Virus record (IMG/VR): IMGVR_UViG_2693429623_000012 | Strand: one strand, 5' to 3' | Origin: a virus | Taxonomy: Duplodnaviria > Heunggongvirae > Uroviricota > Caudoviricetes | DNA length: 28,812 bases | Notes under the pieces: generated by a model | What the model saw: only the letters and a program-made list of their open reading frames with translations | The model's database searches: none | What the model was told of the DNA's origin: nothing | Made by a program: the position numbers and the translations under genes | Part shown: piece by piece, positions 2,970 to 28,812 of the stretch | Numbering within the stretch: position 1 is the stretch's first letter | How the letters are laid out: each line of letters begins with the position of its first letter

Positions 2970-2997
2970 TGAAAAGAAAAAAGGCCGCAGAGCGGCC
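2970..2997 (-). terminator. Intrinsic terminator for a minus-strand transcript: hairpin GGCCGCTCTGCGGCC followed by TTTTTTCTTTTC
   Basis: Plus strand reads gaaaagaaaaaa-ggccgcagagcggcc (2970-2997); on the minus strand this is a 6-bp GC stem with 3-nt loop followed by a T-run. Lies about 110 bp downstream of the cargo ORF stop and about 60 bp upstream of the btuC start. Confidence 0.6.
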
Positions 2998-3106
2998 ATA
3001 AACACAAACAAAAATCAATAAGTTAGGTAATTATCAAAGACTTACAGACACACAAAAACACAGCCAACCACAACAAATAACAGAGATGTGGTCAATTTGT
3101 GGATCA

Positions 3107-3544
3107 TCAGCCAACAAATTTAGCAACAAATACAGCAACCGCCGCTGTGAAAATGGTTGTGCACACTGGCACAATAATGCCACTCCAACGCCACTTCGTA
3201 TTATCATCAACCTTGTCAAACCGCCGATTCATCTCATCCATAATCTTGTCAAAGCGTTTATCCATCGCTTCGGTAAGCTCACCCTTCAGGCTGTTAATGT
3301 CTGATTTGAGCTGCTCTTTCAGGTTAGCTGTATCAGATTTAAGCTCACCTTTCAGATTCGCAATATCGCATTCAAGATCACCTTTCAGATGTGCTATGTC
3401 TGCTTTGAGTTCACCTTTCACCTCACCAACATCGGCTTTAGTTGAGAGGTTTGTAGTGCGTTCAGCAAGCGTCGCAAGGTCGTTTCTTGTTAGCGATAAA
3501 TCACCTTCGAGCCGCTCAATTCGCCTTTCAAGTTTATCTGACAT
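3107..3544 (-). CDS. Membrane-anchored coiled-coil protein with five 11-residue (hendecad) repeats and one C-terminal TM helix; unknown function (alternative upstream start at 3661 gives 184 aa)
   Basis: ORF track 3107..3661. An internal ATG at 3544 is preceded by GGAGG (4-nt spacer) and gives MSDKLERRIERLEG... Repeats like ADIAHLKGDLE / CDIANLKGELK / SDTANLKEQLK; C-terminal hydrophobic segment IIVPVCTTIFTAAVAVFVAKFV. Lower GC than the flanking host genes. Confidence 0.6.
   Translation of the reverse strand: MSDKLERRIERLEGDLSLTRNDLATLAERTTNLSTKADVGEVKGELKADIAHLKGDLECDIANLKGELKSDTANLKEQLKSDINSLKGELTEAMDKRFDKIMDEMNRRFDKVDDNTKWRWSGIIVPVCTTIFTAAVAVFVAKFVG
3277..3441. repeat. Five imperfect tandem 33-bp repeats inside the coiled-coil cargo gene
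   Basis: Units start at 3277, 3310, 3343, 3376, 3409, for example gctcacctttcagattcgcaatatcgcattcaa and gatcacctttcagatgtgctatgtctgctttga; in frame, each encodes one 11-aa repeat. Confidence 0.85.
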
Positions 3545-3644
3545 TCCGCCTCCACTACTGCCGCCATCGCCACCATGATAAAGCACATCACGCTCAGAAT
3601 GCGACACACTACCTGCTGAATTACCGAAAAGATTTCTTGCTACA

Positions 3645-4178
3645 TTACCCATTATCACCATCCTGCGCTTTGTCTTTCTCCAACCACTTCAGCACCGCAG
3701 ACGTACGATAAAGGCTCAGGTAACCACAATTCAGGCAATGCAGCGTGTAATAAGTTTTGCGCATATCAGGTATGCTCTTAACATCACCCAAAAAAGCATA
3801 AGATACATAATGCTTTATGTTCTCTTTAATTAACTCACTCTGTTCCTCCAGGGGTAGATTGTTAAAATTTTCTGGTTTCTTATTTTTATCCCAGCAAAGA
3901 TCCATACTTTCTGGAACAGATAATCGCGACGATCCACATGAAGGGCAGACACTGGAGACCCCCTTCTCAGACAAGAAACGGAAGAAGATTTCTGGCGTAA
4001 TCTCCATCAGCCGCTCTTTATGTTTTNNNNNNNNNNNNNNNNNNNNNNNNNNNNNNNNNNNNNNNNNNNNNNNCGACTTCTTATTGATTTCATCAGCTTC
4101 TTCTTTGCATTTATCTTCTATATATTTCGATAGTAAATAGTCATATAACTCTTTTTTTGTAGGTTTTTTTATTTCCAT
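3645..4178 (-). CDS. Lys-rich protein with two CxxC pairs (CPSCG ... CLNCG), a putative zinc ribbon; unknown function; interrupted by an assembly gap so true length is uncertain
   Basis: ORF track 3645..4178 (16 X residues from the N run). Start ATG at 4178 lies 2 nt after the int stop (TAA at 4183-4181, minus strand) and is preceded by GGGAGGA inside the int 3' end. AT-rich (roughly 40% GC by eye). Confidence 0.55.
   Translation of the reverse strand: MEIKKPTKKELYDYLLSKYIEDKCKEEADEINKKSXXXXXXXXXXXXXXXXKHKERLMEITPEIFFRFLSEKGVSSVCPSCGSSRLSVPESMDLCWDKNKKPENFNNLPLEEQSELIKENIKHYVSYAFLGDVKSIPDMRKTYYTLHCLNCGYLSLYRTSAVLKWLEKDKAQDGDNG
4027..4073. other. Assembly gap (47 N)
   Basis: Run of n characters; not biological sequence. 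Confidence 0.99.
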
Positions 4179-4180
4179 AG

Positions 4181-5158
4181 TTACATTCCTCCCAAGGGAT
4201 TAAACCTCACCGCATCCTGCAAGTAATCCGGCGCAAGATGGGCATAAATCATCGTTGTCTGAATCTTTGCGTGCCCCAGAATTTTCTGGAGCGTCAGAAT
4301 ATTGCCGCCGTTCATCATGAAATGACTGGCGAAGGTGTGGCGCAGCGCATGAACAGCCTGGCCGTCAGGAACATCAGGTGCGACCGTTTTGATGACATCG
4401 CGAACCAATGAATAATCCAGCGTCGGAAACACCAGTTTCCCGCCCCGTTTTTTGATCTTTTCAAACAGGCTTTCAGAAATAGGAACGGTACGGTTTTTGC
4501 TGTTCTTCGTTTTTGAAAAAGTGATTCGACAATGAAGAACACGGCGCTGCTCCAGTGCCGCTACCTCGCCCCATCGCGCCCCGGTCGACAGAAGGATTTC
4601 GACGGCCAGCCGTTCATCGGGATTTTCAGCCAGTGCATCCAGCAACTGAACACATTCAGACTTACTCAGATATCCCATTTCACGCTCGTTAACCTTCATT
4701 CCTTTAAGGCCTTGAACGGGGTTATCGTTAAGAAAATGGCCGGATGAGATGAGTGCGGTAAACATCGCGCTTAACGCCCCAATCTCTCGATTTATGGTGC
4801 TGGGCTGTATCCCCTGCTCTATCCTGGACACACGTAGCTCGGTGAGCATCGTTGTATTAAGTTTATGCACGCACGGGTCATCCATTGCCTCACTCAAGCG
4901 CAGCAATTTAAGGCGCGTGTTATGCCCTGACTTCATTAGCTGGCCGTGGTATTTCCACCACAAGTCAATAAGCACTGACAGCGGACGGCGATCAATGGAG
5001 TTTCCTTTCCACTCATTGTTATGCTGTTGCGCCAGCACCCACCGCTCATATAAAACTGCATCCGATTTCGTTTTAAATTTTTTGCGAATGCGTTTGCCTT
5101 TACGCCCCTCAGGACGCATGTCAAGAAGATACCCTCCCGGAATTGATTTTATGCTCAT
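4181..5158 (-). CDS. int: Tyrosine site-specific integrase, P2 Int-like (about 325 aa)
   Basis: ORF track 4181..5308. Start moved to the ATG at 5158 (MSIKSIPGGYLLDMRPEGRKGKRIRKKF...), which aligns with the P2 Int N-terminus (MAIKKLDDGRYEVDIRPTGRNGKRIRRKF, recalled). C-terminal catalytic region HALRHTFASHFMMNGGNILTLQKILGHAKIQTTMIYAHLAPDYL carries the conserved R..H-x-x-R..Y motifs. Confidence 0.9.
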   Translation of the reverse strand: MSIKSIPGGYLLDMRPEGRKGKRIRKKFKTKSDAVLYERWVLAQQHNNEWKGNSIDRRPLSVLIDLWWKYHGQLMKSGHNTRLKLLRLSEAMDDPCVHKLNTTMLTELRVSRIEQGIQPSTINREIGALSAMFTALISSGHFLNDNPVQGLKGMKVNEREMGYLSKSECVQLLDALAENPDERLAVEILLSTGARWGEVAALEQRRVLHCRITFSKTKNSKNRTVPISESLFEKIKKRGGKLVFPTLDYSLVRDVIKTVAPDVPDGQAVHALRHTFASHFMMNGGNILTLQKILGHAKIQTTMIYAHLAPDYLQDAVRFNPLGGM

Positions 5159-5207
5159 TCGTGAAGCCCCAGCGTTACAAGACCACCATGCCCCCAGCGT
5201 TCCATGA

Positions 5208-5519
5208 TTAGCCGGGCTGTGTGCCAGTCTTGCGGGATTTTTGAGAAGACGATGTGTTTTCTGGCCCATCAGGGGAGAGAGAAGGACTGATCTGCCCAGC
5301 AGCCTCATTTGTTTCGTTACTCATCAACCACGTAGTGTATTTTTTAAATTCCGGGTGCATTGTGATTTTCAGTAAAACCTCCGTTCCCACACCTCGAATA
5401 CCAGTCTCGTATTGCTTAACCGTACCAACCGCAATACCTATTGAATCCGCGAACTTTGCCTGACTAAGCCCCTCAGATTCTCGAATTGCTTTTAGCTTCT
5501 TTGATATCTCTATTGACAT
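5208..5519 (-). CDS. Immunity repressor, P2 C-like (about 104 aa)
   Basis: ORF track 5208..5621; start moved to the ATG at 5519 (MSIEISKKLKAIRESEGLSQAKFADSIGIAVGTVKQYETG..., HTH). C-terminal part ...EFKKYTTWLMSNETNEAAGQISPSL... resembles P2 C (...QFTKYTLWFMTNQIAPESGQIAPAL..., recalled). Divergent from the cox-like gene, upstream of int. Confidence 0.8.
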   Translation of the reverse strand: MSIEISKKLKAIRESEGLSQAKFADSIGIAVGTVKQYETGIRGVGTEVLLKITMHPEFKKYTTWLMSNETNEAAGQISPSLSPDGPENTSSSQKSRKTGTQPG

Positions 5520-10776: not shown

Positions 10777-10821
10777 AGCGCGCACAAAACAGGCAAAAAC
10801 GGGATTTCAGAATCCCGTAAA
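10724..10821. repeat. Two copies of a 25-bp element AAACGGGAyTyAsGAATCCCGTAAA, each an inverted repeat (ACGGGA/TCCCGT); candidate parC-like centromere, operator or replication signal
   Basis: Copy 1 at 10724-10748 (inside the A 3' end), copy 2 at 10797-10821 (intergenic), 73 bp apart, just upstream of the ParM-like gene. Confidence 0.5.
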
Positions 10822-10852
10822 CGATTAATTAATCAACATAAGGAAAAGCGAC

Positions 10853-11812
10853 ATGAAAATTTGTATCGACGACGGCTCCACCAACATCAAGCTGGCATGG
10901 ACTGAGAACGGCGAACGCCGCAACGCCATCAGCCCGAACAGCTTCAAGTCGGAATGGTCTGCGCCGTTCGGTGGCATGCAGCCCGCGAACTACATGCTTG
11001 ATGGCGTGCGCTATGGTTTTGATCCGGTCAGCGATCGCTTTGTCCAGACAACCGACACGCAATACCAGTACAGCGATGTAAATGTCATTGCCATTCATCA
11101 CGCGCTGGTCAAATCAGGCATCACGCCACAGGAGGTGGATGTGGTTGTCACCCTGCCACTGAGCGAGTATTTCGACACAAACGCACAGCCGGACATGGCC
11201 AACATCAACCGCAAAAAAGCGAACGTTATGCGCCCGGTGGAGTACCAGAACGGCGAAGCATTCACTATCCGTAACGTGCGGGTTATGCCTGAATCCATTC
11301 CGGCTGGCTTTAAGGCACTGGCTGACATGAGTCCGTTTGAATCCCTGCTGATTGTGGATTTGGGCGGAACCACGCTGGATGTGGCAAAGGTTCAGGGGCA
11401 ACTGGCAGGTATCAGCCAGGTGTTTTGCGATCCACACGTAGGCGTTTCTCTGATGGCCGATGCCGTACTGTCGGTGATGGCCACTAACGGTATGCGCACC
11501 AGTCACCACATCGCCAATACCATTATCGAACATCGCCATGATGAAGCCTGGCTGCGCCAGCACATCCACAATGACGCGCATTACGCCAGCCTGATGGCGG
11601 TTATTCGTGAAAAGGAAGAAACACTGAAACAACGCGTGATCCGCGCGCTGGCGGGTTTTTCGGGTTACGGGCGGGTGATGGTTGTCGGTGGAGGGGCGGA
11701 GATTGTGGCACCCGCTATCCGCGAAGCCTGCGGAGTTAATGCGACTTTCATCGCGGACGGGGTGCCACAGTTTGCTCTGGTTAATGGGCTGTACGCAATG
11801 GACAAGGAGTAA
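10853..11812 (+). CDS. Actin-like segregation ATPase, ParM/StbA family (319 aa)
   Basis: N-terminus MKICIDDGSTNIKLAW...ISPNSFKSEW...YSDVNVIAIHHAL closely parallels plasmid R1 ParM (MLVFIDDGSTNIKLQW...ISPNSFKREW...YSDVNVVAVHHAL, recalled); AAGGAAAAG upstream. Confidence 0.85.
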   Translation: MKICIDDGSTNIKLAWTENGERRNAISPNSFKSEWSAPFGGMQPANYMLDGVRYGFDPVSDRFVQTTDTQYQYSDVNVIAIHHALVKSGITPQEVDVVVTLPLSEYFDTNAQPDMANINRKKANVMRPVEYQNGEAFTIRNVRVMPESIPAGFKALADMSPFESLLIVDLGGTTLDVAKVQGQLAGISQVFCDPHVGVSLMADAVLSVMATNGMRTSHHIANTIIEHRHDEAWLRQHIHNDAHYASLMAVIREKEETLKQRVIRALAGFSGYGRVMVVGGGAEIVAPAIREACGVNATFIADGVPQFALVNGLYAMDKE

Positions 11813-11816
11813 ACCA

Positions 11817-12128
11817 ATGACGACACCAACCAGACGGATAAGTTTCTATCTGAAGCCTGCGGCCGTCAAGAACGAAAGCGAAGCATGCGCCTGGCTGGGC
11901 AGCCTTACACCAGAAGCCCGCAAAAGCGGCCAACGCGTGGCTTTTCTGGCCGGGCTGGCACTTCTGAAAATGAATCCAGCAGAGGCTTACCGACTGGCTG
12001 CATGGGCTGACGATGAGGCGTTATCGGTGACACAAACCAGGACAGAACGCCCCGTGCCACAGCCAGTACCAACCGCACAGATAACCAGTCAGATAGCAGG
12101 GAATATCCGGGCATTATTTCCTGAATGA
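11817..12128 (+). CDS. Putative ParR-like partition adaptor (103 aa)
   Basis: In-frame ATG 5 nt after the parM-like stop. Weak but collinear resemblance to R1 ParR: RRISFYLKP vs RRTIAFKLNP, AGLAL core, C-terminal IRALFPE vs ILRSLFPKE (recalled). Confidence 0.55.
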   Translation: MTTPTRRISFYLKPAAVKNESEACAWLGSLTPEARKSGQRVAFLAGLALLKMNPAEAYRLAAWADDEALSVTQTRTERPVPQPVPTAQITSQIAGNIRALFPE

Positions 12129-12188
12129 CGAATTTGACGGCTTTTAATTTTATCGGGGTGCACTGTCGCCCCGCACGAGGAAAACACG

Positions 12189-12713
12189 ATGAAAAAATAC
12201 GAATACATGCTAATGAAAGAAGCACTGCGGGCTGGTCTGGCTCCCTGTCCTGTATCCGTAGAAGCTGTTGTTGGGAACACGATTTTCCGAACGCTGCGAA
12301 ATCGCGTATCCGTGAAGATGGTTCACCAACCACCCAAATCTACCAGCATGATCTATCTGCCGCTGCCCGAGGCTATCAAACTTATGCGTTCGCTGAAATT
12401 TGCGATTTGGATGCAGACACAAATCAACAAAGCGGTGCAAAACACCTTCGTTAAGAGACTAATACCGGAGCTTGCTGCCAGATGTGCAAAATGTACCAGA
12501 CCCGCACTTCAATTTGATCTGTCATTGATTCAACAAGCTACGGAGGCAGAACTGTACCGCCTGTCACCTATCCGTGATGCTCACACGGAAGCATCAGAAA
12601 TGTTCCGGCTCATGTTTCAATTTAATTTTGCCGTTCGACGCACACGCGTTCAGGTCAATCGCATGATGCAGGAGCAGGAAGAGTTAACACAGTACAAAGG
12701 GGGCAGCCAGTGA
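12189..12713 (+). CDS. Hypothetical protein (174 aa), accessory-locus cargo
   Basis: ORF track 12189..12713; GAGGA upstream; no recognisable motif. Confidence 0.5.
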   Translation: MKKYEYMLMKEALRAGLAPCPVSVEAVVGNTIFRTLRNRVSVKMVHQPPKSTSMIYLPLPEAIKLMRSLKFAIWMQTQINKAVQNTFVKRLIPELAARCAKCTRPALQFDLSLIQQATEAELYRLSPIRDAHTEASEMFRLMFQFNFAVRRTRVQVNRMMQEQEELTQYKGGSQ

Positions 12714-12949
12714 GTAATTCAGCACGACTACAGCTTGGTTTTTCACCGCTATCAAAAACCATCGTATTGGCAAAAATGCGTGACTTAGGAGACGGAACAA
12801 AACGCCGCGTAGGAAATGATCGCGGTCGCGATGTAACCAACGAGGCCGCTCAACTCGTTTGGCATCTAGTCATGGCAGAAGGCGGTGAAATTAATTGGGA
12901 GCTGGATGATGGTTCTCGTATGATTTTGAGGGCCGAGAAGAGTAAATAG
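12710..12949 (+). CDS. Hypothetical protein (79 aa), accessory-locus cargo
   Basis: ORF track 12710..12949; start overlaps the upstream stop (ATGA). Confidence 0.45.
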   Translation: MSNSARLQLGFSPLSKTIVLAKMRDLGDGTKRRVGNDRGRDVTNEAAQLVWHLVMAEGGEINWELDDGSRMILRAEKSK

Positions 12950-12963
12950 CTCAAGGGGGATTA

Positions 12964-13149
12964 ATGCTAAATGATGATGAAGAAGAGCTGCTTATGCAGG
13001 AATGGTCGCTCGGTGATTATGATAATGGTGAAAATGGGTGCCCGCATTGTGGCCGTTATCGTTTATGTATCTGCCAGAATGGAAAACACAGATGTGAAAA
13101 GTGCAATTGGTCTCCGGAACTTAATGACTACGTGCCGATCGAGTGGTAG
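12964..13149 (+). CDS. Small Cys-rich putative zinc-binding protein (61 aa)
   Basis: ORF track 12964..13149; CPHCGRYRLCICQNGKHRCEKCNW has at least two CxxC pairs. Confidence 0.45.
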   Translation: MLNDDEEELLMQEWSLGDYDNGENGCPHCGRYRLCICQNGKHRCEKCNWSPELNDYVPIEW

Positions 13150-13189
13150 AGGTAAGTCACACTAGGTGTTTTTTAGTTGATTTTATAAA

Positions 13190-13216
13190 TGCACAATAGT
13201 GCACAAATTTGCACAA
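13190..13216. repeat. Three TGCACAA heptamers phased exactly 10 bp apart
   Basis: TGCACAA at 13190-13196, 13200-13206, 13210-13216, with a fourth at 13282-13288. Nearby: direct repeat GGATCCGT (13260-13267 and 13271-13278) and a perfect 16-bp palindrome AAAAAACGCGTTTTTT (13288-13303). Confidence 0.8.
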
Positions 13217-13640
13217 TTTTTTTGAACGACTTTTTGCCCTTCCGGCCCGCGTGGCGGCTGGATCCGTCAAGGATCCGTGCATGCACAAAAAAACGCGTTT
13301 TTTCTGCGCGCAGGTGACGGGGGAACAGCCCGCGTTTCAGGGGGTAAATAGCATTCCCTGAACGATGTCGCAGAGATACAACAGAATGGCTGTATTTCTC
13401 ACGCTGAGCGTGAAAAAGACGTGAGGGCTTTTGATTTGATGGGGTGAAAGGTAAGGCCGTCAAAATCGCACTGAGACGGCGAGAATATGCAGTCAACGAG
13501 GTGGGATTGCGTAAGAGTCTGACTGTCGATGATGGCAATCAGCAGGAAAGCGTCGTGAAATTATCTGACTGATACAGGAGCTGGAGAGTCGGGGCATAAA
13601 TTTTTTATGCCCCGGCGAAGCAGCAGACAAGCGAAGCGCG

Positions 13641-14687
13641 TCAGGATGTGGGCTGGGTGTCTAACAGTGCGTAAGGGTTAAAGCGGATCACCTCTTCGCC
13701 AAGCCAGTCATTGATGTGCTTCATGGCCTCCATGACGGGCATCAGCTCGTTAATTGCGTAAACCCGCGCGGCCTTCTCCACATCACCAAACGCACTTTTT
13801 TCGCCCGGCATCGCCCCCATCAGTTGCGGCGGAACGCGGTGCGCAGCCAGCACATCATCACGGGATGCCGCCTTAACATTCATGAACTCATCCTTTGCGG
13901 TGATCTGCTGGAACGGCAAAATTTGCACCCCCTCTTTGCCCCCGTTGGGCGCATGAATGAGCACGTTTTTAAACGCACCACCACCACGTGCCCCCTGTAG
14001 CGTTTCTTTCAGGGAGTCCATGCTTTCGCGGTTTACCTGCGCTGCACCGATGTAGATGATGCACCCGGCGTGGGATCCGTTGTCGTAGTACAGTTTTCTG
14101 AACATGTCCGCCGAATGAGAAAGGCTGGCCGAGAGTAATGCGCCAAGATATTCCGGCATGCCGTAGATTTCCTGGTTAATATCCGGATTCATCAGGTGGC
14201 ACACTTTGCCAGGACGAAACTGAAACGCATCCTTGCCATCCTGCACATACCACCATGATTCAAGATCGCTTCCGCGTCGCATGTATTTCGCCAGGGCGTG
14301 CCGTAATTTAAGCGGTTCGCCGAGCATATTGCTCCGAAGCTCAAGGAATGCGTTACCGAACACAAACCAGTCCAGCGCCAGCGCCGAGAAATCCTGCCGG
14401 GAAAGCAGCGGGTGCGGAATATAGCAGCCGAGCAATACATTGCGCTTAAAGTAAAGCGCAGACTGATGCCAGGACGTTTGCCGGGCAGCTCTTGCCAGAC
14501 CGTACCAGTCCACCGGGGTTTCATACCACCGCCCGTTATCAGCACAGTACATATTGTCCAGCAGGTCATGCCCGGTCAGGCGGTAAGGACCATCAAATGT
14601 GAATGCACTGAGCGACGATTCTTTCCTGAGCGCATCAGCGAGATCAATGCGTGAACTCATGCGCACTTTTTTATTTTTTCTGCTCAT
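13641..14687 (-). CDS. Q: Portal protein, P2 gpQ-like (348 aa)
   Basis: ORF track 13641..14687; size and position match P2 Q (last gene of the leftward P-Q operon); start codon overlaps the P stop. Confidence 0.85.
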   Translation of the reverse strand: MSRKNKKVRMSSRIDLADALRKESSLSAFTFDGPYRLTGHDLLDNMYCADNGRWYETPVDWYGLARAARQTSWHQSALYFKRNVLLGCYIPHPLLSRQDFSALALDWFVFGNAFLELRSNMLGEPLKLRHALAKYMRRGSDLESWWYVQDGKDAFQFRPGKVCHLMNPDINQEIYGMPEYLGALLSASLSHSADMFRKLYYDNGSHAGCIIYIGAAQVNRESMDSLKETLQGARGGGAFKNVLIHAPNGGKEGVQILPFQQITAKDEFMNVKAASRDDVLAAHRVPPQLMGAMPGEKSAFGDVEKAARVYAINELMPVMEAMKHINDWLGEEVIRFNPYALLDTQPTS

Positions 14688-20144: not shown

Positions 20145-20440
20145 CAGGTTTTTTTCAGCGGGTGAGTGACTGGATCACCTTCTGGGCATCAGTCACAGCC
20201 ACCACAATAGGCGTGATGACCATCAGTGAAAAAATCGCCCTTGCCGGGTTGTTACTCGGTTCTCTGTCTGCATTACATGCCTGGCGACATCGCCGCCTGA
20301 TGGAAACCGCCATGCAGCGTCGCAATGAACTCATCGCCAGTATCCTGGCGCAGTCAGACGCACGGCCACTTCACGACAGTGAGCGTCAGGCTCTGAACAT
20401 TCTGCGGGATAACGATACACATGATAAAGCTGCCCGTTAA
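20138..20440 (+). CDS. Holin, two predicted TM helices (100 aa)
   Basis: In-frame ATG at 20138 within ORF track 19931..20440; hydrophobic segments ITFWASVTATTIGVMTI and IALAGLLLGSLSALHAW; charged C-terminus; sits immediately before the endolysin. Confidence 0.7.
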   Translation: MVTGFFQRVSDWITFWASVTATTIGVMTISEKIALAGLLLGSLSALHAWRHRRLMETAMQRRNELIASILAQSDARPLHDSERQALNILRDNDTHDKAAR

Positions 20441-20969
20441 ACGTTACGCCGTAGCCGCCATTGTGGCGCTGGGGTTCTCCATTGCCCCTCACAAACTCCG
20501 GACCAGCCCGGAAGCGCAAATCCGCATTGCCACATGGGAGGACTGTCGCGCAACGCCTTACCGGGATATTGCCGGGGTAATGACCGTGGGGTGCGGCTCG
20601 ACCGGGCATGTGGAAAATCGTCTGTACACCGAAACGGAAGTCGCCGGGCGCTGGGTTAATGATATGCAACATGCAGAAAACTGCATAAATCAGAACTTCA
20701 GCGGCAACGCCATGCCACAGTCCGCGTTTGAGGCAATGACAGATGCCGCCTTTAATCTTGGATGCAGAAATCTTATGTGGTTCAGGGATAAGAACCGTAA
20801 CTACCACCGCACCACTATCTGGAAACATGCACAGGCGCACAACTGGCCTGACATGTGCAACAGACTGACTGACTTCGTGAACAGCGGCGGCGAACGCTCA
20901 CAGGGACTGGTTAACCGTCGTACTGATTTTCGTGCATGGTGCTTACGTGACACCGGAGGCCAGTCATGA
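20421..20969 (+). CDS. Endolysin, T4-lysozyme-like muramidase with N-terminal signal-anchor-release (SAR) segment (182 aa)
   Basis: Hydrophobic N-terminal segment YAVAAIVALGFSIAP followed by the catalytic triad spacing E-x8-D-x5-T (WEDCRATPYRDIAGVMT), as in phage P21-type SAR endolysins (established family feature). Confidence 0.8.
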   Translation: MIKLPVKRYAVAAIVALGFSIAPHKLRTSPEAQIRIATWEDCRATPYRDIAGVMTVGCGSTGHVENRLYTETEVAGRWVNDMQHAENCINQNFSGNAMPQSAFEAMTDAAFNLGCRNLMWFRDKNRNYHRTTIWKHAQAHNWPDMCNRLTDFVNSGGERSQGLVNRRTDFRAWCLRDTGGQS

Positions 20970-21439
20970 AAGTGCGTTACATCCTGATGATGGCACTGAC
21001 CGTCCTCACGCTGCTGACCATAACACTCTGGCAGACATTCAGACTGGGGCAGGAAGACGGACACAACCGTTATACACAGGCGCAACTGGACGATTACAGC
21101 CGGACCCTGAAAGAGGCCGGCACCATCATCAGCACCGCATCCGGTGTACTGCGTGACGTCATGACAGCGCGCCAGAACCGACAACAGGAAGGGGAAATCC
21201 GACGTGAACAGCTACGCAACGATATCACGACAGATGCATGTGCCCGCGCTGTTCCTGACGCTCGCTTTACTGAGCGGTTGCACCAGCACGCAGAACGCGT
21301 CCGCGCCGCCGCCGTCGTTCCGTTTCATCCCGGAAGGGCTGACCGCCCCCGTACTTCCCCCGCCGTTTCCGGTGACGCCATCATGGGGAAACATCGGGAT
21401 ATGGAGCGACAGCCTCATGGACGCACTGGAAACCTGTAA
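20966..21439 (+). CDS. Inner-membrane spanin component (Rz/LysB-like, 157 aa)
   Basis: N-terminal TM helix (ILMMALTVLTLLTITLW) then a charged coiled-coil region; follows the endolysin; start overlaps the endolysin stop. Confidence 0.65.
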   Translation: MKVRYILMMALTVLTLLTITLWQTFRLGQEDGHNRYTQAQLDDYSRTLKEAGTIISTASGVLRDVMTARQNRQQEGEIRREQLRNDITTDACARAVPDARFTERLHQHAERVRAAAVVPFHPGRADRPRTSPAVSGDAIMGKHRDMERQPHGRTGNL

Positions 21440-21524
21440 CGCCGATAAGCGGGCCATTGAATTACTGGAACAGCGCAGGCTGCAACGACTGAACAACGAG
21501 GACAACAACCATGCTGAAAACTGA
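21234..21524 (+). CDS. Outer-membrane lipoprotein spanin component (Rz1/LysC-like), embedded out of frame in and extending beyond the i-spanin gene
   Basis: ORF track 21204..21524 (GTG); ATG at 21234 gives MHVPALFLTLALLSGC with a lipobox, followed by a Pro-rich region, typical of o-spanins. Confidence 0.55.
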   Translation: MHVPALFLTLALLSGCTSTQNASAPPPSFRFIPEGLTAPVLPPPFPVTPSWGNIGIWSDSLMDALETCNADKRAIELLEQRRLQRLNNEDNNHAEN

Positions 21525-25825: not shown

Positions 25826-25852
25826 NNNNNNNNNNNNNNNNNNNNNNNNNNN
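25826..25852. other. Assembly gap (27 N) joining P2-like and lambdoid material
   Basis: Run of n characters placed at the end of the shared repeat; sequence on the two sides belongs to different phage modules. Confidence 0.99.
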
Positions 25853-26360: not shown

Positions 26361-28812
26361 ATGACAGTAAAAATTTCTGGCGTGCTTAAAGATGGCACAG
26401 GAAAACCAGTACAGAACTGCACCATTGTGCTGAAGGCCAGACGAACCAGCAGCACGATGGTGGTGAACACGGTGGCCTCTGAAAATCCGGATGAAGCCGG
26501 ACGTTACAGCATGGATGTTGAGCATGGTCAGTACAGCGTCACCCTGCTGGTTGAAGGTTTTCCGCCTTCACATGCCGGGACCATTACCGTCTATGAAGGT
26601 TCCAGACCAGGTACGCTGAATGATTTTCTCGGTGCCATGACGGAGGATGATGTCCGACCGGAGGCACTGCGCCGCTTTGAGCAGATGGTGGAAGAGGTGT
26701 CACGTAACGCCTCCGCGGTTGCACAGAATACGGCAGCCGCGAAAAAATCAGCCAGCGAGGCGGCAACTCATGCAACCGATGCTGCAGCCTCAGCACGTGC
26801 CGCCAGCACGTCAGCCGGACAGGCCGCGTCGTCGGCTCAGTCAGCGTCTTCCAGCGCAGGAACGGCATCGACAAAGGCCCGTGAAGCAGCAAAAAGTGCT
26901 GCTGCAGAGTCATCAAAAAGCGCGGCAGCTACCAGCGCCAGTGCCGCGAAAACGTCAGAAACGAATGCCGCAGCATCACAAAAATCGGCAGCCACTTCTG
27001 CATCCACAGCGACCACGAAGGCGTCAGAAGCTGCCACCTCGGCACGGGGTGCGGCGGCCTCAAAAGAGGCAGCGAAATCTTCAGAAACGAATGCATCATC
27101 AAGTGCCAGTAGTGCAGCTTCCTCGGCAACGGCGGCAGGAAATTCCGCGAAGGCGGCAAAAACGTCCGAGACGAACGCTAAGTCTTCTGAAACAGCAGCG
27201 GGACAGAGCGCCTCAGCTGCGGCAGGTTCAAAAACAGCGGCTGCATTATCTGCCAGTGCCGCGTCAACAAGTGCCGGGCAGGCCTCAGCCAGTGCCACCG
27301 CCGCCGGAAAATCGGCAGAAAGCGCCGCATCATCCGCTTCAACAGCCACAACGAAGGCTGGCAAAGCCACTGAGCAAGCCACTGCAGCAGCGAGGTCTGC
27401 TTCTGCAGCAAAAACCTCTGAAACAAATGCAAAGACTTCAGCAGACAATGCTGCTTCCTCTAAGGCAGCAGCCGCATCGTCAGCCAGTTCAGCGGCGTCA
27501 TCGGCATCATCTGCGTCTGCTTCAAAAGATGAGGCGACCAGACAAGCGTCAGCAGCGAAAGGTAGTGCCACGACAGCAACAACGAAAGCATCAGAGGCGG
27601 CAGGCAGTGCGACGGCTGCATCTCAGAGCAAAGTTGCTGCTGAATCCGCGGCAACGCGCGCCGAGACAGCAGCAAAACGGGCAGAGGATATTGCATCCGC
27701 CGTGGCGCTTGAGGATGCGAGCACGACGAAAAAGGGGATAGTACAGCTCAGCAGTGCGACCAACAGCACTTCCGAGTCACTGGCGGCAACGCCAAAAGCG
27801 GTTAAGGCGGTAATGGGTGAAACGAACAAGAAAGCGCCCTTAAATAGTCCTGCACTGACCGGAACGCCAACAACACCAACTGCGCGACAGGGAACGAATA
27901 ATACCCAAATCGCAAGCACGGCTTTCGTTATGGCTGCGATTGCCGCCCTTGTAGATTCGTCACCTGATGCACTGAACACGCTGAACGAGCTGGCTGCGGC
28001 GCTGGGCAACGACCCGAATTTTGCGACCACCATGACTAACGCGCTTGCGGGTAAGCAACCGAAAGATGCCACTCTGACGGCGCTGGCGGGGCTTGCTACT
28101 GCGGCAGACAGGTTTCCGTATTTTACGGGGAATGATGTCGCCAGCCTGGCAACCCTGACAAAAGTCGGGCGGGATATTCTTGCGAAATCGACCGTTGCTG
28201 CCGTTATCGAATACCTCGGTTTACAGGAAACGGTAAACAAGGCTGGTAACGCCGTTCAGCGTTCCGGCGATAAAATGACCGGAGAACTGAAAATTGGCAC
28301 GGTGAATGCGCTGCGAATTTTCAATGATACCTTCGGTCTAATTTTCCGTCGTTCAGAAGATTTTCTTCATTTCATTCCGACGGCTGAAGGACAAGGCGAA
28401 AACGGTAATATCGGCCCATTAAGGCCATTCGCTATAAATCTGAGAACAGGTGCTATATCTGTCAGCCACGGGGCCAAAATTAAAGGAGGTCTAGCTATTG
28501 GAGCTACTGATAACGCACTGGGTGAAAACTCCATTGTTCTGGGAGATAACGACACCGGATTTAGGCAAGATGGAGATGGTATTATTAGCTTCTATTCAAA
28601 TGGTTCGCGCATCGGACATATTGATGAGTTAGGATTACATCTTTATAAAGATATTGAATCTAATGGCAGCAATTTTAGATTAAAAAGTAATTACCGCCAC
28701 CACATTACATTCGCCAACGAAGACGGAAGAATTCGTATGTTTTTGTGGAAAGATAACGGTGGTGATGGTGTTCATATTAATAACGGTTCAGATGGTGGTG
28801 GTGATTTCATTT
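26361..28812 (+). CDS. stf: Side tail fibre protein, lambda Stf-like (partial, continues past window end)
   Basis: My own translation from the ATG at 26361 is open to the end of the window (not in the ORF track because there is no stop): MTVKISGVLKDGTGKPVQNCTIVLKARR...SMDVEHGQYSV..., then a long Ala/Ser/Thr-rich repeat region, then ...KKGIVQLSSATNSTSESLAATPKAVKAV...ALAGKQPKDATLTALAGL..., matching lambda Stf as recalled. Confidence 0.9.
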   Translation, partial: MTVKISGVLKDGTGKPVQNCTIVLKARRTSSTMVVNTVASENPDEAGRYSMDVEHGQYSVTLLVEGFPPSHAGTITVYEGSRPGTLNDFLGAMTEDDVRPEALRRFEQMVEEVSRNASAVAQNTAAAKKSASEAATHATDAAASARAASTSAGQAASSAQSASSSAGTASTKAREAAKSAAAESSKSAAATSASAAKTSETNAAASQKSAATSASTATTKASEAATSARGAAASKEAAKSSETNASSSASSAASSATAAGNSAKAAKTSETNAKSSETAAGQSASAAAGSKTAAALSASAASTSAGQASASATAAGKSAESAASSASTATTKAGKATEQATAAARSASAAKTSETNAKTSADNAASSKAAAASSASSAASSASSASASKDEATRQASAAKGSATTATTKASEAAGSATAASQSKVAAESAATRAETAAKRAEDIASAVALEDASTTKKGIVQLSSATNSTSESLAATPKAVKAVMGETNKKAPLNSPALTGTPTTPTARQGTNNTQIASTAFVMAAIAALVDSSPDALNTLNELAAALGNDPNFATTMTNALAGKQPKDATLTALAGLATAADRFPYFTGNDVASLATLTKVGRDILAKSTVAAVIEYLGLQETVNKAGNAVQRSGDKMTGELKIGTVNALRIFNDTFGLIFRRSEDFLHFIPTAEGQGENGNIGPLRPFAINLRTGAISVSHGAKIKGGLAIGATDNALGENSIVLGDNDTGFRQDGDGIISFYSNGSRIGHIDELGLHLYKDIESNGSNFRLKSNYRHHITFANEDGRIRMFLWKDNGGDGVHINNGSDGGGDFI
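27740..28072. repeat. Copy 2 of the ~330-bp direct repeat shared with gene H
   Basis: See copy 1; here the repeat continues into ...actctgacggcgctggcggggctt..., the sequence expected to follow where copy 1 is cut by the gap. Confidence 0.9.

What the first reader, a model, noticed from the sequence alone, without database searches (positions are those of the whole stretch)
3277..3441. Five in-frame 33-bp tandem repeats encoding an 11-residue repeat coiled coil
Units at 3277, 3310, 3343, 3376 and 3409 are imperfect copies of a 33-bp unit, each encoding one hendecad (xDIAxLKGELK-like). A hendecad repeat ending in one TM helix suggests a membrane-anchored rod whose length could vary by repeat gain or loss (slippage or recombination). 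Such length-variable architecture is unusual for a prophage gene beside int.
Basis: seen in the sequence. Interest (0 to 1): 0.5.

Follow-up and report, generated by a model that had tools for sequence, protein, structure and literature searches.

The report
Variable-length stalk of prophage membrane protein
The five 33-bp repeats are real and encode the rod-like stalk of a small membrane-anchored protein carried as cargo by a P2-like prophage; the protein belongs to a known but functionally unexplained family (DUF1640/CCDC90, which includes Borrelia Bdr), and its stalk differs between strains in exact 11-residue steps.

Summary
Observation confirmed. On the minus strand, codon-phased units at 3275-3439 encode five hendecads (KADVGEVKGEL ... 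KSDINSLKGEL) in gene 3107-3652. The 33-nt periodicity is far beyond chance.

The gene encodes a head-neck-stalk-anchor protein of the DUF1640/CCDC90-like kind:
- a variable N-terminal peptide and a Gly-rich linker;
- a conserved helix;
- an LSTKAD "neck" motif;
- the hendecad stalk;
- a C-terminal TM helix.

It is homologous to Borrelia Bdr repeat proteins.

Copy number varies. All 43 homologues differ by exact multiples of 11 residues (2-7 units, and 0 in Providencia). One E. coli allele is nucleotide-identical except for a clean 33-bp deletion between 13-nt microhomologies. Another carries a 32/33-identical duplicated unit. Variation is slow, though: 36 of 39 complete E. coli genomes with the gene have five units.

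The gene is always paired with an overlapping zinc-ribbon gene. The pair occupies the integrase-att cargo slot of a P2-like prophage beside btuC. Most related lysogens (265 of 304) carry an unrelated gene there instead.

Function is unknown. I infer a lysogen-expressed, membrane-tethered scaffold, possibly anti-phage.

The parts
3107..3652 (-). Gene for the DUF1640/CCDC90-like membrane protein, long form: 181 aa from ATG 3652-3650, stop codon 3109-3107. The longest ORF starts at 3661. RefSeq annotates only 3107..3544 (145 aa).
   Evidence: ORF list; 100% identical to E. coli O26 RM8426, WP_005142454.1 'DUF1640 domain-containing protein'; 181-aa homologue cluster P0001 with 98 member sequences.
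3545..3652 (-). N-terminal variable peptide (aa 1-27, containing an ERDV motif) plus a Gly-rich linker (GGDGGSSGGG). Probably translated. Its start overlaps the stop of the upstream zinc-ribbon gene (ATGGGTAA).
   Evidence: The upstream frame is open with a start codon about 37 codons before the invariant Met in every locus, although the sequences differ widely. Class-specific motifs ([ED]RD[VI], or G[VI]TPIR) are conserved across genera. AF2 gives pLDDT <50 here, i.e. disordered.
3542..3544 (-). Invariant internal Met codon (aa 37 of the long form), preceded by GGAGGCGGA, which resembles a Shine-Dalgarno site. This is the RefSeq start and a possible second initiation site.
   Evidence: Met is invariant in alignment A1. 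Upstream sequence. RefSeq CDS 3107..3544.
3449..3544 (-). Conserved 'head' helix (aa 37-68, MSDKLERRIERLEGDLSLTRNDLATLAERTTN) with heptad-like periodicity (3.56).
   Evidence: AF2 helix 38-68. Periodicity. About 99% nucleotide identity between alleles whose flanking modules differ.
3431..3448 (-). Neck: LSTKAD (aa 69-74), matching the beta-layer motif [aliphatic]-A-T-K-[polar]-[DE] that marks the start of the DUF1640 stalk. It overlaps the first three codons of unit 1.
   Evidence: T71, K72 and D74 are invariant in 33 homologues. Motif definition from PMC4786415. AF2 helix break at 69-72. It aligns with MATKED of 6H9L.
3275..3439 (-). Five canonical hendecads (33 nt each): units at 3407-3439, 3374-3406, 3341-3373, 3308-3340 and 3275-3307. 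This is the copy-number-variable part of the stalk.
3378..3390 (-). 13-nt word ATCTGAAAGGTGA in unit 2. Its twin lies 33 nt away in unit 3. The two words bound the 33-bp deletion seen in allele L002.
   Evidence: Exactly two matches in the window, none expected by chance. Alignment of the window gene with L002.
3345..3357 (-). Second copy of ATCTGAAAGGTGA, in unit 3.
3209..3274 (-). Two degenerate hendecads (TEAMDKRFDKI, MDEMNRRFDKV) that continue the stalk toward the membrane. Periodicity 3.69.
   Evidence: AF2 helix continuous to aa 146.
3122..3181 (-). C-terminal transmembrane anchor (aa 158-177, GIIVPVCTTIFTAAVAVFVA), followed by only KFVG.
   Evidence: The most hydrophobic 19-mer scores 2.43 on the Kyte-Doolittle scale. 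AF2 helix 153-180. The juxtamembrane and TM region aligns with Bdr at hhalign probability 96.9%.
2973..2997 (-). Terminator-like hairpin (GGCCGC-TCT-GCGGCC plus a T-run) at the prophage/host junction. E. coli without the prophage match the window only up to about 2997.
3645..4145 (-). Conserved partner gene: a 166-aa zinc-ribbon protein (CxxC...CxxC, phrog_4293). Its stop overlaps the start of the stalk-protein gene. In the window it is interrupted by an N run at 4027-4073.
   Evidence: AF2 pLDDT 83.5 with no informative fold match.
4148..5486 (-). Integrase (4148-5125) and HTH repressor (5175-5486). They are co-oriented with and tightly spaced to the cassette, suggesting one lysogenic operon.

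Best explanation
**Shown.**
- The five 33-bp units encode the variable central stalk of a small protein of the DUF1640/CCDC90-like 'head-neck-stalk-anchor' kind. It is 181 aa long, or 145 aa from the internal Met.
- The domain order is: a disordered N-terminal peptide, a Gly-rich linker, a conserved helix, an LSTKAD neck motif, hendecads with hydrophobic residues at positions a, d and h, and one C-terminal TM helix.
- Unit number changes between alleles in exact 11-residue steps, through deletion or duplication of whole 33-bp units at short shared words.
- The gene is always paired with an overlapping zinc-ribbon gene.

**Inferred.**
- The protein is tail-anchored in the inner membrane, with the whole rod in the cytoplasm, because there is no signal peptide and only four residues follow the TM helix.
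- It probably forms a parallel trimer like its solved relatives. Each hendecad would add about 1.6 nm.
- The stalk would then act as a spacer that sets how far the head and N-terminal peptide sit from the membrane.
- The cassette is probably co-transcribed with the repressor and integrase, and so expressed in lysogens.
- The N-terminal peptide may dock the zinc-ribbon partner.
- The module most likely serves a lysogenic-conversion or phage-exclusion role at the membrane.
- Copy-number change is occasional unequal recombination or slippage, not programmed hypervariation.
For: **The repeat is real and in frame:**

**Family placement.**
- RefSeq names the product DUF1640/CCDC90.
- Pfam PF07798 hit at E 3.7e-5.
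- T, K and D of the neck motif are invariant, matching the DUF1640 beta-layer motif of PMC4786415.
- The family profile's best PDB hit is 6H9L (E 1.1e-4, three chains), aligned neck-to-neck.
- BLASTP against a Borrelia Bdr protein gives E 2e-13. hhalign gives 96.9% probability over the juxtamembrane and TM region.
- Bdr itself passes the PF07798 threshold.

**Structure.**
- Periodicity of 3.65 in the array.
- AF2 helices at 38-68, 73-146 and 153-180, with a break at the neck.

**Copy-number variation.**
- All 43 homologues equal a constant plus n x 11 aa, with n = 2-7.
- L002 is nucleotide-identical apart from one 33-bp deletion bounded by 13-nt words.
- L033 has unit 3 duplicated at 32/33 identity, and L004 has adjacent 33/33-identical units.
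- The Providencia homologue has no hendecads at all.

**Genomic context.**
- The order repressor, int, zinc-ribbon gene, this gene, att, btuC holds in E. coli and Salmonella. The same order up to attP holds in an extrachromosomal Klebsiella P2-like phage genome.
- The gene is inside the phage genome in that Klebsiella record.
- An alternative unrelated cargo gene fills the slot in 265 of 304 lysogens.
- The int-att region of P2 is a reported defence hotspot (PMC13586616).
- The prophage has its own lysis cassette.
Against: - No experiment or annotation gives a function. PADLOC, NCBIfam and PHROGs give only unknown-function or coiled-coil noise hits.
- This sequence scores below Pfam's gathering threshold for PF07798 (24.1 vs 33.5 bits).
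- Oligomeric state and topology were not testable. The monomer AF2 model has low confidence (pLDDT 58).
- The partner protein has no informative fold match.
- No promoter was detected for the proposed operon by the simple scan.
- Co-variation of the N-terminal peptide with partner class could simply reflect physical linkage of adjacent DNA.
- The start codon is unresolved: RefSeq uses the internal Met.
Confidence: 0.7

Rival explanations
1. The 11-mers form an apolipoprotein/LEA/synuclein-type amphipathic helix that lies flat on the membrane surface, rather than a coiled-coil rod.
For: The top (sub-threshold) Pfam hit is Apolipoprotein A1/A4/E, E 1e-5. The family profile hits apolipoprotein A-IV structures at E about 1e-3. 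An 11/3 periodicity is shared by both kinds of helix.
Against: - The score is 25.8 bits against a gathering threshold of 90.
- Only 3 of 11 positions are strongly hydrophobic, a narrow a-d-h stripe in an array with 21 charged residues out of 55.
- The neck motif and the better match to the three-chain coiled-coil entry 6H9L argue for a stalk.
- Length variation in strict hendecad steps, which would preserve the register between head and anchor, fits a rod.
Confidence: 0.08
2. The array is a fast contingency locus: repeat number changes at high frequency within a culture to switch or tune function.
For: Alleles that are otherwise identical differ by one unit. Some alleles carry perfect 33/33 adjacent units, which would slip more easily.
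Against: - The units in this window are only 58-73% identical.
- Changes are multiples of 3, so they cannot switch the gene off.
- 36 of 39 complete E. coli genomes with the gene have five units, across O26, O103, O145, O157 and others.
- The 5-unit clusters hold 159 member sequences, against 1-12 for other counts.
- bdr repeat numbers were reported stable in culture (Zuckert & Barbour 2000, as cited in PMC3303823).
Confidence: 0.05
3. The protein is a lysis accessory (holin-, spanin- or XhlA-like) acting at the end of the lytic cycle.
For: Weak PHROG hits to holin (phrog_689, E 0.004), 'hemolysin' (phrog_1193, E 0.023) and Rz-like spanins (E 0.03). It is a small protein with one TM helix.
Against: - These hits are at noise level for a coiled-coil protein with one TM helix.
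- The prophage has a complete P2-type lysis cassette elsewhere: holin, M15 endolysin, a DUF2570 protein and LysC at 20208-21475.
- The gene lies in the repressor-integrase orientation, next to att, in an optional cargo slot that 265 of 304 related lysogens fill with an unrelated gene.
Confidence: 0.04
4. It is ordinary low-complexity sequence with no biological meaning, or the real gene is the antisense ORF 3099..3578 (+).
For: The repeats keep a 159-aa ORF open on the plus strand.
Against: - The minus-strand protein has hundreds of relatives with the same architecture: 773 representative clusters at E<=1e-3. Of the 127 listed representatives of 300 aa or less, 72 have a C-terminal TM helix and 110 show lag-11 periodicity.
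- It keeps a conserved partner and synteny across four genera.
- Array length is strictly quantised in hendecads.
Confidence: 0.02

Closest known systems
Borrelia Bdr (Borrelia direct repeat) proteins of cp32 prophage-plasmids and linear plasmids
   Same: - Small inner-membrane-associated proteins with tandem imperfect 11-residue (33-bp) repeats of the same type (KSDIMSVKSDL vs KSDINSLKGEL here) and a C-terminal hydrophobic anchor.
- Carried as prophage 'lysogenic conversion' cargo, with function unknown.
- Repeat number differs between strains in otherwise near-identical genes: bdrT has about 9 repeats in B31 and about 6 in N40 at 99.4% identity (PMC3303823; PMC10016077).
- Direct similarity: BLASTP E 2e-13, and hhalign probability 96.9% over the juxtamembrane and TM region.
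   Different: - The N-terminal domains are unrelated.
- There is no KID/KIE tripeptide core (here it is ADI, CDI or SDI).
- It is a single-copy gene in an enterobacterial P2-like prophage, not a multi-paralog plasmid family.
- It has an obligate zinc-ribbon partner gene, which was not seen next to the one bdr locus examined.
DUF1640 / CCDC90-like 'head-neck-stalk-anchor' membrane proteins (human MCUR1 and CCDC90B; PDB 6H9L; Adlakha et al. 2019 Structure, recalled from memory because the paper is not held)
   Same: - N-terminal head, a beta-layer neck motif ([aliphatic]-A-T-K-x-[DE]; here LSTKAD), a coiled-coil stalk and a C-terminal TM anchor.
- The bulk of the protein lies on the cytoplasmic/matrix side.
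- 6H9L is the best PDB hit for the family profile, and it aligns neck-to-neck.
   Different: - This sequence is below Pfam's gathering score.
- The head is a single short helix plus a disordered peptide. I have not shown it to be the CCDC90B-type head.
- The stalk is built of near-canonical hendecads whose number is polymorphic.
- It is encoded by a phage, together with a partner gene.
DUF1640 genes of other phages (Liberibacter phages SC1/SC2 gp26; Hamiltonella phage APSE-1 P47)
   Same: The same hendecad and TM architecture on temperate phage genomes; function unknown.
   Different: The genomic position differs: in SC1 the gene follows the primase. There is no zinc-ribbon partner, and identity is about 33-43% over the repeats only.
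Cargo hotspots of P2-like phages (old/tin locus, Z/fun locus, int-att region)
   Same: The cassette occupies the integrase-att slot. That slot holds alternative unrelated genes in otherwise syntenic prophages and is reported to hold 3% of P2-borne defence systems (PMC13586616).
   Different: The cassette matches no model in PADLOC. No anti-phage activity has been shown for it.

Membership tests
DUF1640 / CCDC90-like (Pfam PF07798; head-neck-stalk-anchor proteins) | Match to the PF07798 profile at or above the gathering score (33.5 bits) | tested here: inconclusive
   This protein scores 24.1 bits (E 3.7e-5), below the cutoff. The 7-unit allele P0024 scores 33.1 bits and Bdr 41.1 bits. Precomputed Pfam hits for cluster P0001 list PF07798. 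RefSeq names the product DUF1640/CCDC90 family. The score rises with the number of repeats.
DUF1640 / CCDC90-like (Pfam PF07798; head-neck-stalk-anchor proteins) | Beta-layer neck motif [aliphatic]-A-T-K-[polar]-[DE] at the start of the C-terminal stalk (PMC4786415) | tested here: met
   LSTKAD at aa 69-74, with Ser in place of Ala and Ala at the 'polar' position. T71, K72 and D74 are invariant in 33 homologues. It aligns to MATKED of 6H9L. AF2 breaks the helix at 69-72.
DUF1640 / CCDC90-like (Pfam PF07798; head-neck-stalk-anchor proteins) | Single C-terminal transmembrane anchor after the stalk | tested here: met
   aa 158-177: mean hydropathy 2.43, AF2 helix 153-180, and only 4 residues follow.
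DUF1640 / CCDC90-like (Pfam PF07798; head-neck-stalk-anchor proteins) | Parallel trimeric coiled-coil stalk | not testable with these tools
   Only monomer AF2 was available (pLDDT 58). Periodicity of 3.65 is consistent with a hendecad coiled coil. The closest solved relative, 6H9L, has three identical chains.
Borrelia Bdr family (InterPro IPR003900 KID repeats; paralogous family PFam80) | Tandem 11-residue repeats of variable number plus a C-terminal hydrophobic anchor | tested here: met
Borrelia Bdr family (InterPro IPR003900 KID repeats; paralogous family PFam80) | KID/KIE tripeptide core in the repeats (PMC4370689) and the conserved Bdr N-terminal domain | tested here: not met
   The repeats here read K[AS]D[IVT] with no KID or KIE. 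The BLASTP alignment covers only the repeats and the membrane-proximal part, not the Bdr N-terminus. I therefore file the protein as a relative in the same superfamily, not as a Bdr.
Apolipoprotein A1/A4/E-type amphipathic 11/22-mer repeats (PF01442) | Profile match at the gathering score (90 bits) | tested here: not met
   25.8 bits.
Known anti-phage defence systems (PADLOC-DB 2.0) | Significant match of either cassette protein to a defence-system model | tested here: not met
   For the stalk protein there are only coiled-coil-level hits (LmuB, ZorA, LeoBC; E 4e-5 to 3e-2, 11-21 bits). For the partner there are none.
Simple-sequence contingency locus (phase variation) | Near-perfect short repeats whose gain or loss shifts the frame or promoter spacing at high frequency | tested here: not met
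   The unit is 33 nt, so the frame is always kept. Units are 58-73% identical. 36 of 39 complete genomes have the same count.

The most novel reading that the evidence does not exclude
The zinc-ribbon protein and the tail-anchored stalk protein form a previously undescribed two-gene prophage module, for example a superinfection-exclusion or abortive-infection system in the P2 int-att hotspot. In this reading a trimeric hendecad stalk acts as a molecular ruler. The polymorphic unit number (0-7, about 1.6 nm each) would tune how far a partner-docking peptide is held from the inner membrane. Because the protein is homologous to Borrelia Bdr and distantly to MCUR1/CCDC90B, this would give the first genetically tractable handle on the function of the whole DUF1640/Bdr superfamily.
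Probability: 0.2. Interest if true: 0.65.

Novelty: new member of a known kind. Interest (0 to 1): 0.38.

Why it matters
Bdr proteins have lacked a known function since the late 1990s, and the wider DUF1640/CCDC90 class is poorly understood. This locus offers three things:
- It places a clear relative in a P2-like prophage of E. coli, where genetics is easy.
- It provides a natural allelic series of stalk lengths (0-7 hendecads) with otherwise near-identical sequence.
- It identifies a conserved partner gene.

Together these make simple experiments possible, such as phage challenge, two-hybrid assays and stalk-length swaps. The locus also adds one uncharacterised cassette to the integrase-att cargo hotspot of P2-like phages. 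In itself, however, the repeat is an expected feature of a described protein family.

Tried and rejected
- **Family libraries.** Pfam, NCBIfam, PHROGs and PADLOC scans of the stalk protein gave no match above a curated threshold. The best specific hit was phrog_9415, of unknown function.
- **PDB sequence search.** The single sequence gave nothing significant. Only the family profile reached 6H9L.
- **AF2 of the monomer.** Confidence was low (pLDDT 58). I used it only for secondary-structure boundaries and ran no fold search on it.
- **Genome-contig scan.** It returned a single locus because the back-translated patterns were too specific.
- **Papers not held.** Adlakha 2019 (Structure) and the primary Bdr papers (PMC116504, PMC2640845) could not be read. 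Statements about them rest on citing papers or on memory and are marked as such.
- **Literature searches.** Searches for hendecad plus prophage, and for tail-anchored exclusion proteins, found nothing specific.
- **Lysis role.** Considered and rejected, because the prophage has its own lysis cassette.
- **Antisense ORF 3099-3578.** Considered and rejected as a by-product of the repeats.
- **Promoter scan.** It found no convincing promoter for the cassette or the repressor, so co-transcription remains an inference from gene spacing.
Full report
**1. The observation**

The repeat is real, but it is read on the minus strand. The longest ORF is 3107..3661 (184 aa). Gene callers elsewhere use the ATG at 3652 (181 aa), while RefSeq uses an internal ATG at 3544 (145 aa).

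In codon phase the units lie at 3407-3439, 3374-3406, 3341-3373, 3308-3340 and 3275-3307. They encode KADVGEVKGEL, KADIAHLKGDL, ECDIANLKGEL, KSDTANLKEQL and KSDINSLKGEL.

Units are 58-73% identical at DNA level. The fraction of identical bases at lag 33 is 0.667, against 0.295 +/- 0.041 in 20,000 codon shuffles, none of which reached it. This is the highest lag-33 value of any 165-nt stretch in the window. Tandem Repeats Finder reports only the three central copies.

Two degenerate hendecads (TEAMDKRFDKI, MDEMNRRFDKV) continue the period. A 20-residue hydrophobic helix ends the protein four residues before the stop.

**2. What the protein is**

The window is 100% identical to E. coli O26 RM8426, where the product is annotated 'DUF1640 domain-containing protein'. 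Other genomes call it 'CCDC90 family protein'.

The Pfam match to PF07798 (CCDC90-like) is significant by E-value (3.7e-5) but below the curated cutoff (24.1 vs 33.5 bits). The score rises with repeat number: the 7-unit allele reaches 33.1 bits.

Independent support comes from anatomy. Hartmann et al. (PMC4786415) describe DUF1640 as integral membrane proteins of prokaryotes and mitochondria that carry a beta-layer motif, [aliphatic]-A-T-K-[polar]-[DE], at the start of their C-terminal stalk. Here LSTKAD sits exactly at the start of the hendecad array, and T, K and D are invariant in 33 homologues.

A profile of the family finds 6H9L as its best solved structure (E 1.1e-4; three identical chains). 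The alignment pairs MATKED with LSTKAD and then runs through 11-residue repeats. From memory, 6H9L belongs to Adlakha et al. 2019 (Structure 27:464), which defined the trimeric 'head-neck-stalk-anchor' class that includes MCUR1 and CCDC90B. That paper is not held.

AF2 of the monomer is low-confidence, as expected for an obligate oligomer. It gives these segments:

| Residues | Prediction |
|---|---|
| 1-36 | disordered |
| 38-68 | helix |
| 69-72 | break |
| 73-146 | one helix |
| 153-180 | TM helix |

Hydrophobic periodicity is 3.56 in the head helix and 3.65 in the array (11/3 = 3.67), with I/V, L and L at positions 4, 7 and 11, i.e. an a-d-h pattern.

**3. The Bdr connection**

A tblastn search of plasmids hit Borrelia 'Bdr family repetitive proteins'. 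A B. miyamotoi Bdr has the same hendecad (KSDIMSVKSDL), a C-terminal TM helix, and passes the PF07798 threshold.

BLASTP between the two proteins gives E 2e-13. hhalign gives 96.9% probability over the juxtamembrane and TM region (KW..G..I..C T.IF), so the similarity is not limited to the repeats.

The literature describes Bdr proteins as follows:
- inner-membrane-associated cargo of cp32 prophages, of unknown function (PMC10016077; PMC3303823);
- imperfect direct repeats whose number differs between strains: bdrT has about 9 repeats in B31 and about 6 in N40, in genes otherwise 99.4% identical;
- no change seen in culture (Zuckert & Barbour 2000, as cited).

The protein here lacks the KID/KIE core and the Bdr N-terminal domain. 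It is therefore a superfamily relative, not a Bdr.

Other phage-borne relatives are Liberibacter SC1/SC2 gp26 and APSE-1 P47. An exhaustive search found 773 representative clusters at E<=1e-3. Among the listed representatives of 300 aa or less, 110 of 127 show lag-11 periodicity and 72 of 127 have a C-terminal TM helix.

**4. Copy number does vary, in exact hendecad steps**

I anchored the array between the neck motif and the post-array EAMDKRFD motif. On that basis all 43 homologues equal a constant plus n x 11 residues.

| Allele type | Unit counts seen |
|---|---|
| This window's type | 2, 3, 4, 5, 6 |
| Second C-terminal type | 2-7 |
| Salmonella type | four length classes spanning five hendecad steps |

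DNA-level events are directly visible:
- L002 (E. coli GCA_000936475.1) is nucleotide-identical to the window gene apart from one clean 33-bp deletion. Its ends fall in the 13-nt word ATCTGAAAGGTGA, which is present in units 2 and 3 at 3378-3390 and 3345-3357.
- L033 has unit 3 duplicated at 32/33 identity, and L004 has adjacent units identical at 33/33.
- A Providencia homologue has the linker, head helix, a neck-like AKKED and the TM helix, but no hendecads at all.

The variation is slow. All 39 complete E. coli genomes with the gene fall into these classes:

| State | Genomes |
|---|---|
| Five units, same-type allele | 36 |
| Five units, divergent allele | 1 |
| IS element immediately after the gene (count not checked) | 1 |
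| Truncated by an IS element | 1 |

The 5-unit clusters hold 159 member sequences, against 1-12 for the other counts.

Alleles are also mosaic. The head module is about 99% identical at nucleotide level between alleles whose N-terminal and C-terminal modules differ strongly.

**5. Genomic context**

The rest of the window is a P2-like prophage. It has GpA replication endonuclease, portal, terminase, GPO scaffold, P2-family capsid, a complete lysis cassette at 20208-21475, and baseplate and tail genes.

E. coli without the prophage match the window only up to about 2997, at a terminator hairpin. The gene is therefore the last prophage gene before att and btuC. A 32-kb extrachromosomal Klebsiella P2-like genome carries a homologue between int and the tail genes, so the gene belongs to the phage.

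In E. coli and Salmonella the order is repressor, int, a zinc-ribbon ORF, this gene, att, btuC. The Klebsiella phage genome has the same order up to attP.

The zinc-ribbon ORF (129-166 aa; four invariant Cys; phrog_4293) is present in every locus, including Salmonella loci where it was not called. Its stop abuts or overlaps the upstream start of the stalk gene by 0-8 nt. The pair also occurs in Providencia.

Of the 304 complete E. coli genomes that share this prophage end, 265 carry a single unrelated 131-aa gene in the slot instead. The slot therefore holds alternative cargo. De Sousa and colleagues (PMC13586616) report the int-att region of P2 as a minor defence hotspot.

**6. Start codon and N-terminal peptide**

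The internal Met is invariant and follows GGAGGCGGA. However, the frame upstream is open with a start codon about 37 codons earlier in every locus, although the sequences differ widely.

Two classes of N-terminal peptide exist:
- one contains [ED]RD[VI] and accompanies the 160-166-aa partner (E. coli, Salmonella, Providencia);
- the other contains G[VI]TPIR and accompanies the 129-137-aa partner.

I take the long form to be translated. The internal start may also give a short isoform. The co-variation with partner class may reflect binding, or only linkage of adjacent DNA.

**7. Mechanism**

Shown:
- the architecture;
- family resemblance;
- quantised length polymorphism with recombination footprints;
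- the obligate gene pair;
- cargo status.

Inferred:
- A tail-anchored topology with the rod in the cytoplasm, because there is no signal peptide and only four residues follow the TM helix. From memory, this matches the matrix-facing orientation of MCUR1/CCDC90B.
- Trimerisation.
- About 1.6 nm per hendecad (11 x 0.15 nm), so the 74-residue helix is roughly 11 nm long and the variable part spans 0 to about 11.5 nm among alleles.
- Co-transcription with the repressor and integrase, as for C-int of P2 (own knowledge), and hence expression in lysogens.
- A scaffold or ruler role that positions the head and peptide, and perhaps the zinc-ribbon partner, relative to the inner membrane. The likely purpose is lysogenic conversion or phage exclusion.

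No tool result bears directly on the function. PADLOC gives only coiled-coil noise, and the partner's confident AF2 model (pLDDT 83.5) has no informative fold match.

**8. Verdict**

The claim of unusualness is not. The hendecad array is the expected stalk of a described family, its copy-number polymorphism has a direct precedent in Bdr, and its location is a known cargo slot.

What is new here is modest:
- an enterobacterial P2-prophage member of the family, with a documented allelic series of stalk lengths;
- a conserved zinc-ribbon partner;
- an explicit sequence link to Bdr.

I rate it a new member of a known kind, with interest 0.38.

Noticed in passing
window 3645-4145 (-): A zinc-ribbon gene (four invariant Cys, phrog_4293, no Pfam family) is always found immediately upstream of the stalk gene, with overlapping stop and start. 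This holds in E. coli, Salmonella, Klebsiella and Providencia. Its AF2 model is confident (pLDDT 83.5: a long N-terminal helix plus a beta zinc ribbon) but matches no known fold.
   Followed up: yes
window 3542-3553 (-): An invariant internal Met is preceded by GGAGGCGGA, encoded by the Gly-rich linker. It could be a second translation start giving a short isoform without the N-terminal peptide. RefSeq annotates only this short form.
   Followed up: partly
L045 4165-4560 (E. coli O104:H4), equivalent to window ~3107-4145: In 265 of 304 complete E. coli genomes with the same prophage end, the int-att slot holds one unrelated 131-aa hypothetical protein (WP_000416308.1) instead of the two-gene cassette.
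   Followed up: partly
window 4027-4073 and 25826-25852: Two runs of N (masked bases). The first interrupts the zinc-ribbon gene, so I used the identical RM8426 record (L001) for its sequence.
   Followed up: partly
window 10820-13685 (+): Between the replication gene (GpA) and the portal gene lie a ParM-like actin, a 'plasmid partitioning/stability' protein and two hypothetical proteins. This is the main P2 cargo hotspot, so plasmid-style segregation genes in a P2-like prophage may be worth a look.
   Followed up: no
window 27662-28234 (-): A serine O-acetyltransferase family gene lies between the tail-fibre assembly gene and the tail genes, at the position of the P2 Z/fun cargo slot. It may be a lysogenic-conversion gene.
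   Followed up: no
L046 323-1837 (strain M1/5); L047 1501-3154 (strain 300709): IS3-family elements have hit this gene or its end in two of the 39 genomes. ISEc52 truncates the 5' part in M1/5. In 300709 an IS3 sits immediately after an altered 3' end.
   Followed up: partly
window 3099-3578 (+): A 159-aa antisense ORF is kept open by the repeats (SSPFR-like units). I judge it a by-product of the repeats, not a gene.
   Followed up: partly
window 3431-3544 vs L004 6001-6114: Alleles are mosaic. The head and neck module is about 99% identical at nucleotide level between alleles whose N-terminal peptide and C-terminal/TM modules are strongly diverged. This suggests recombination breakpoints in or beside the repeat array.
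   Followed up: partly
window 3112-3139: Tandem Repeats Finder reports a 12-nt unit x 2.3 (CAACAAATACAG) inside the TM-coding region, corresponding to ...AVFVAKFV... It is probably trivial.
   Followed up: no
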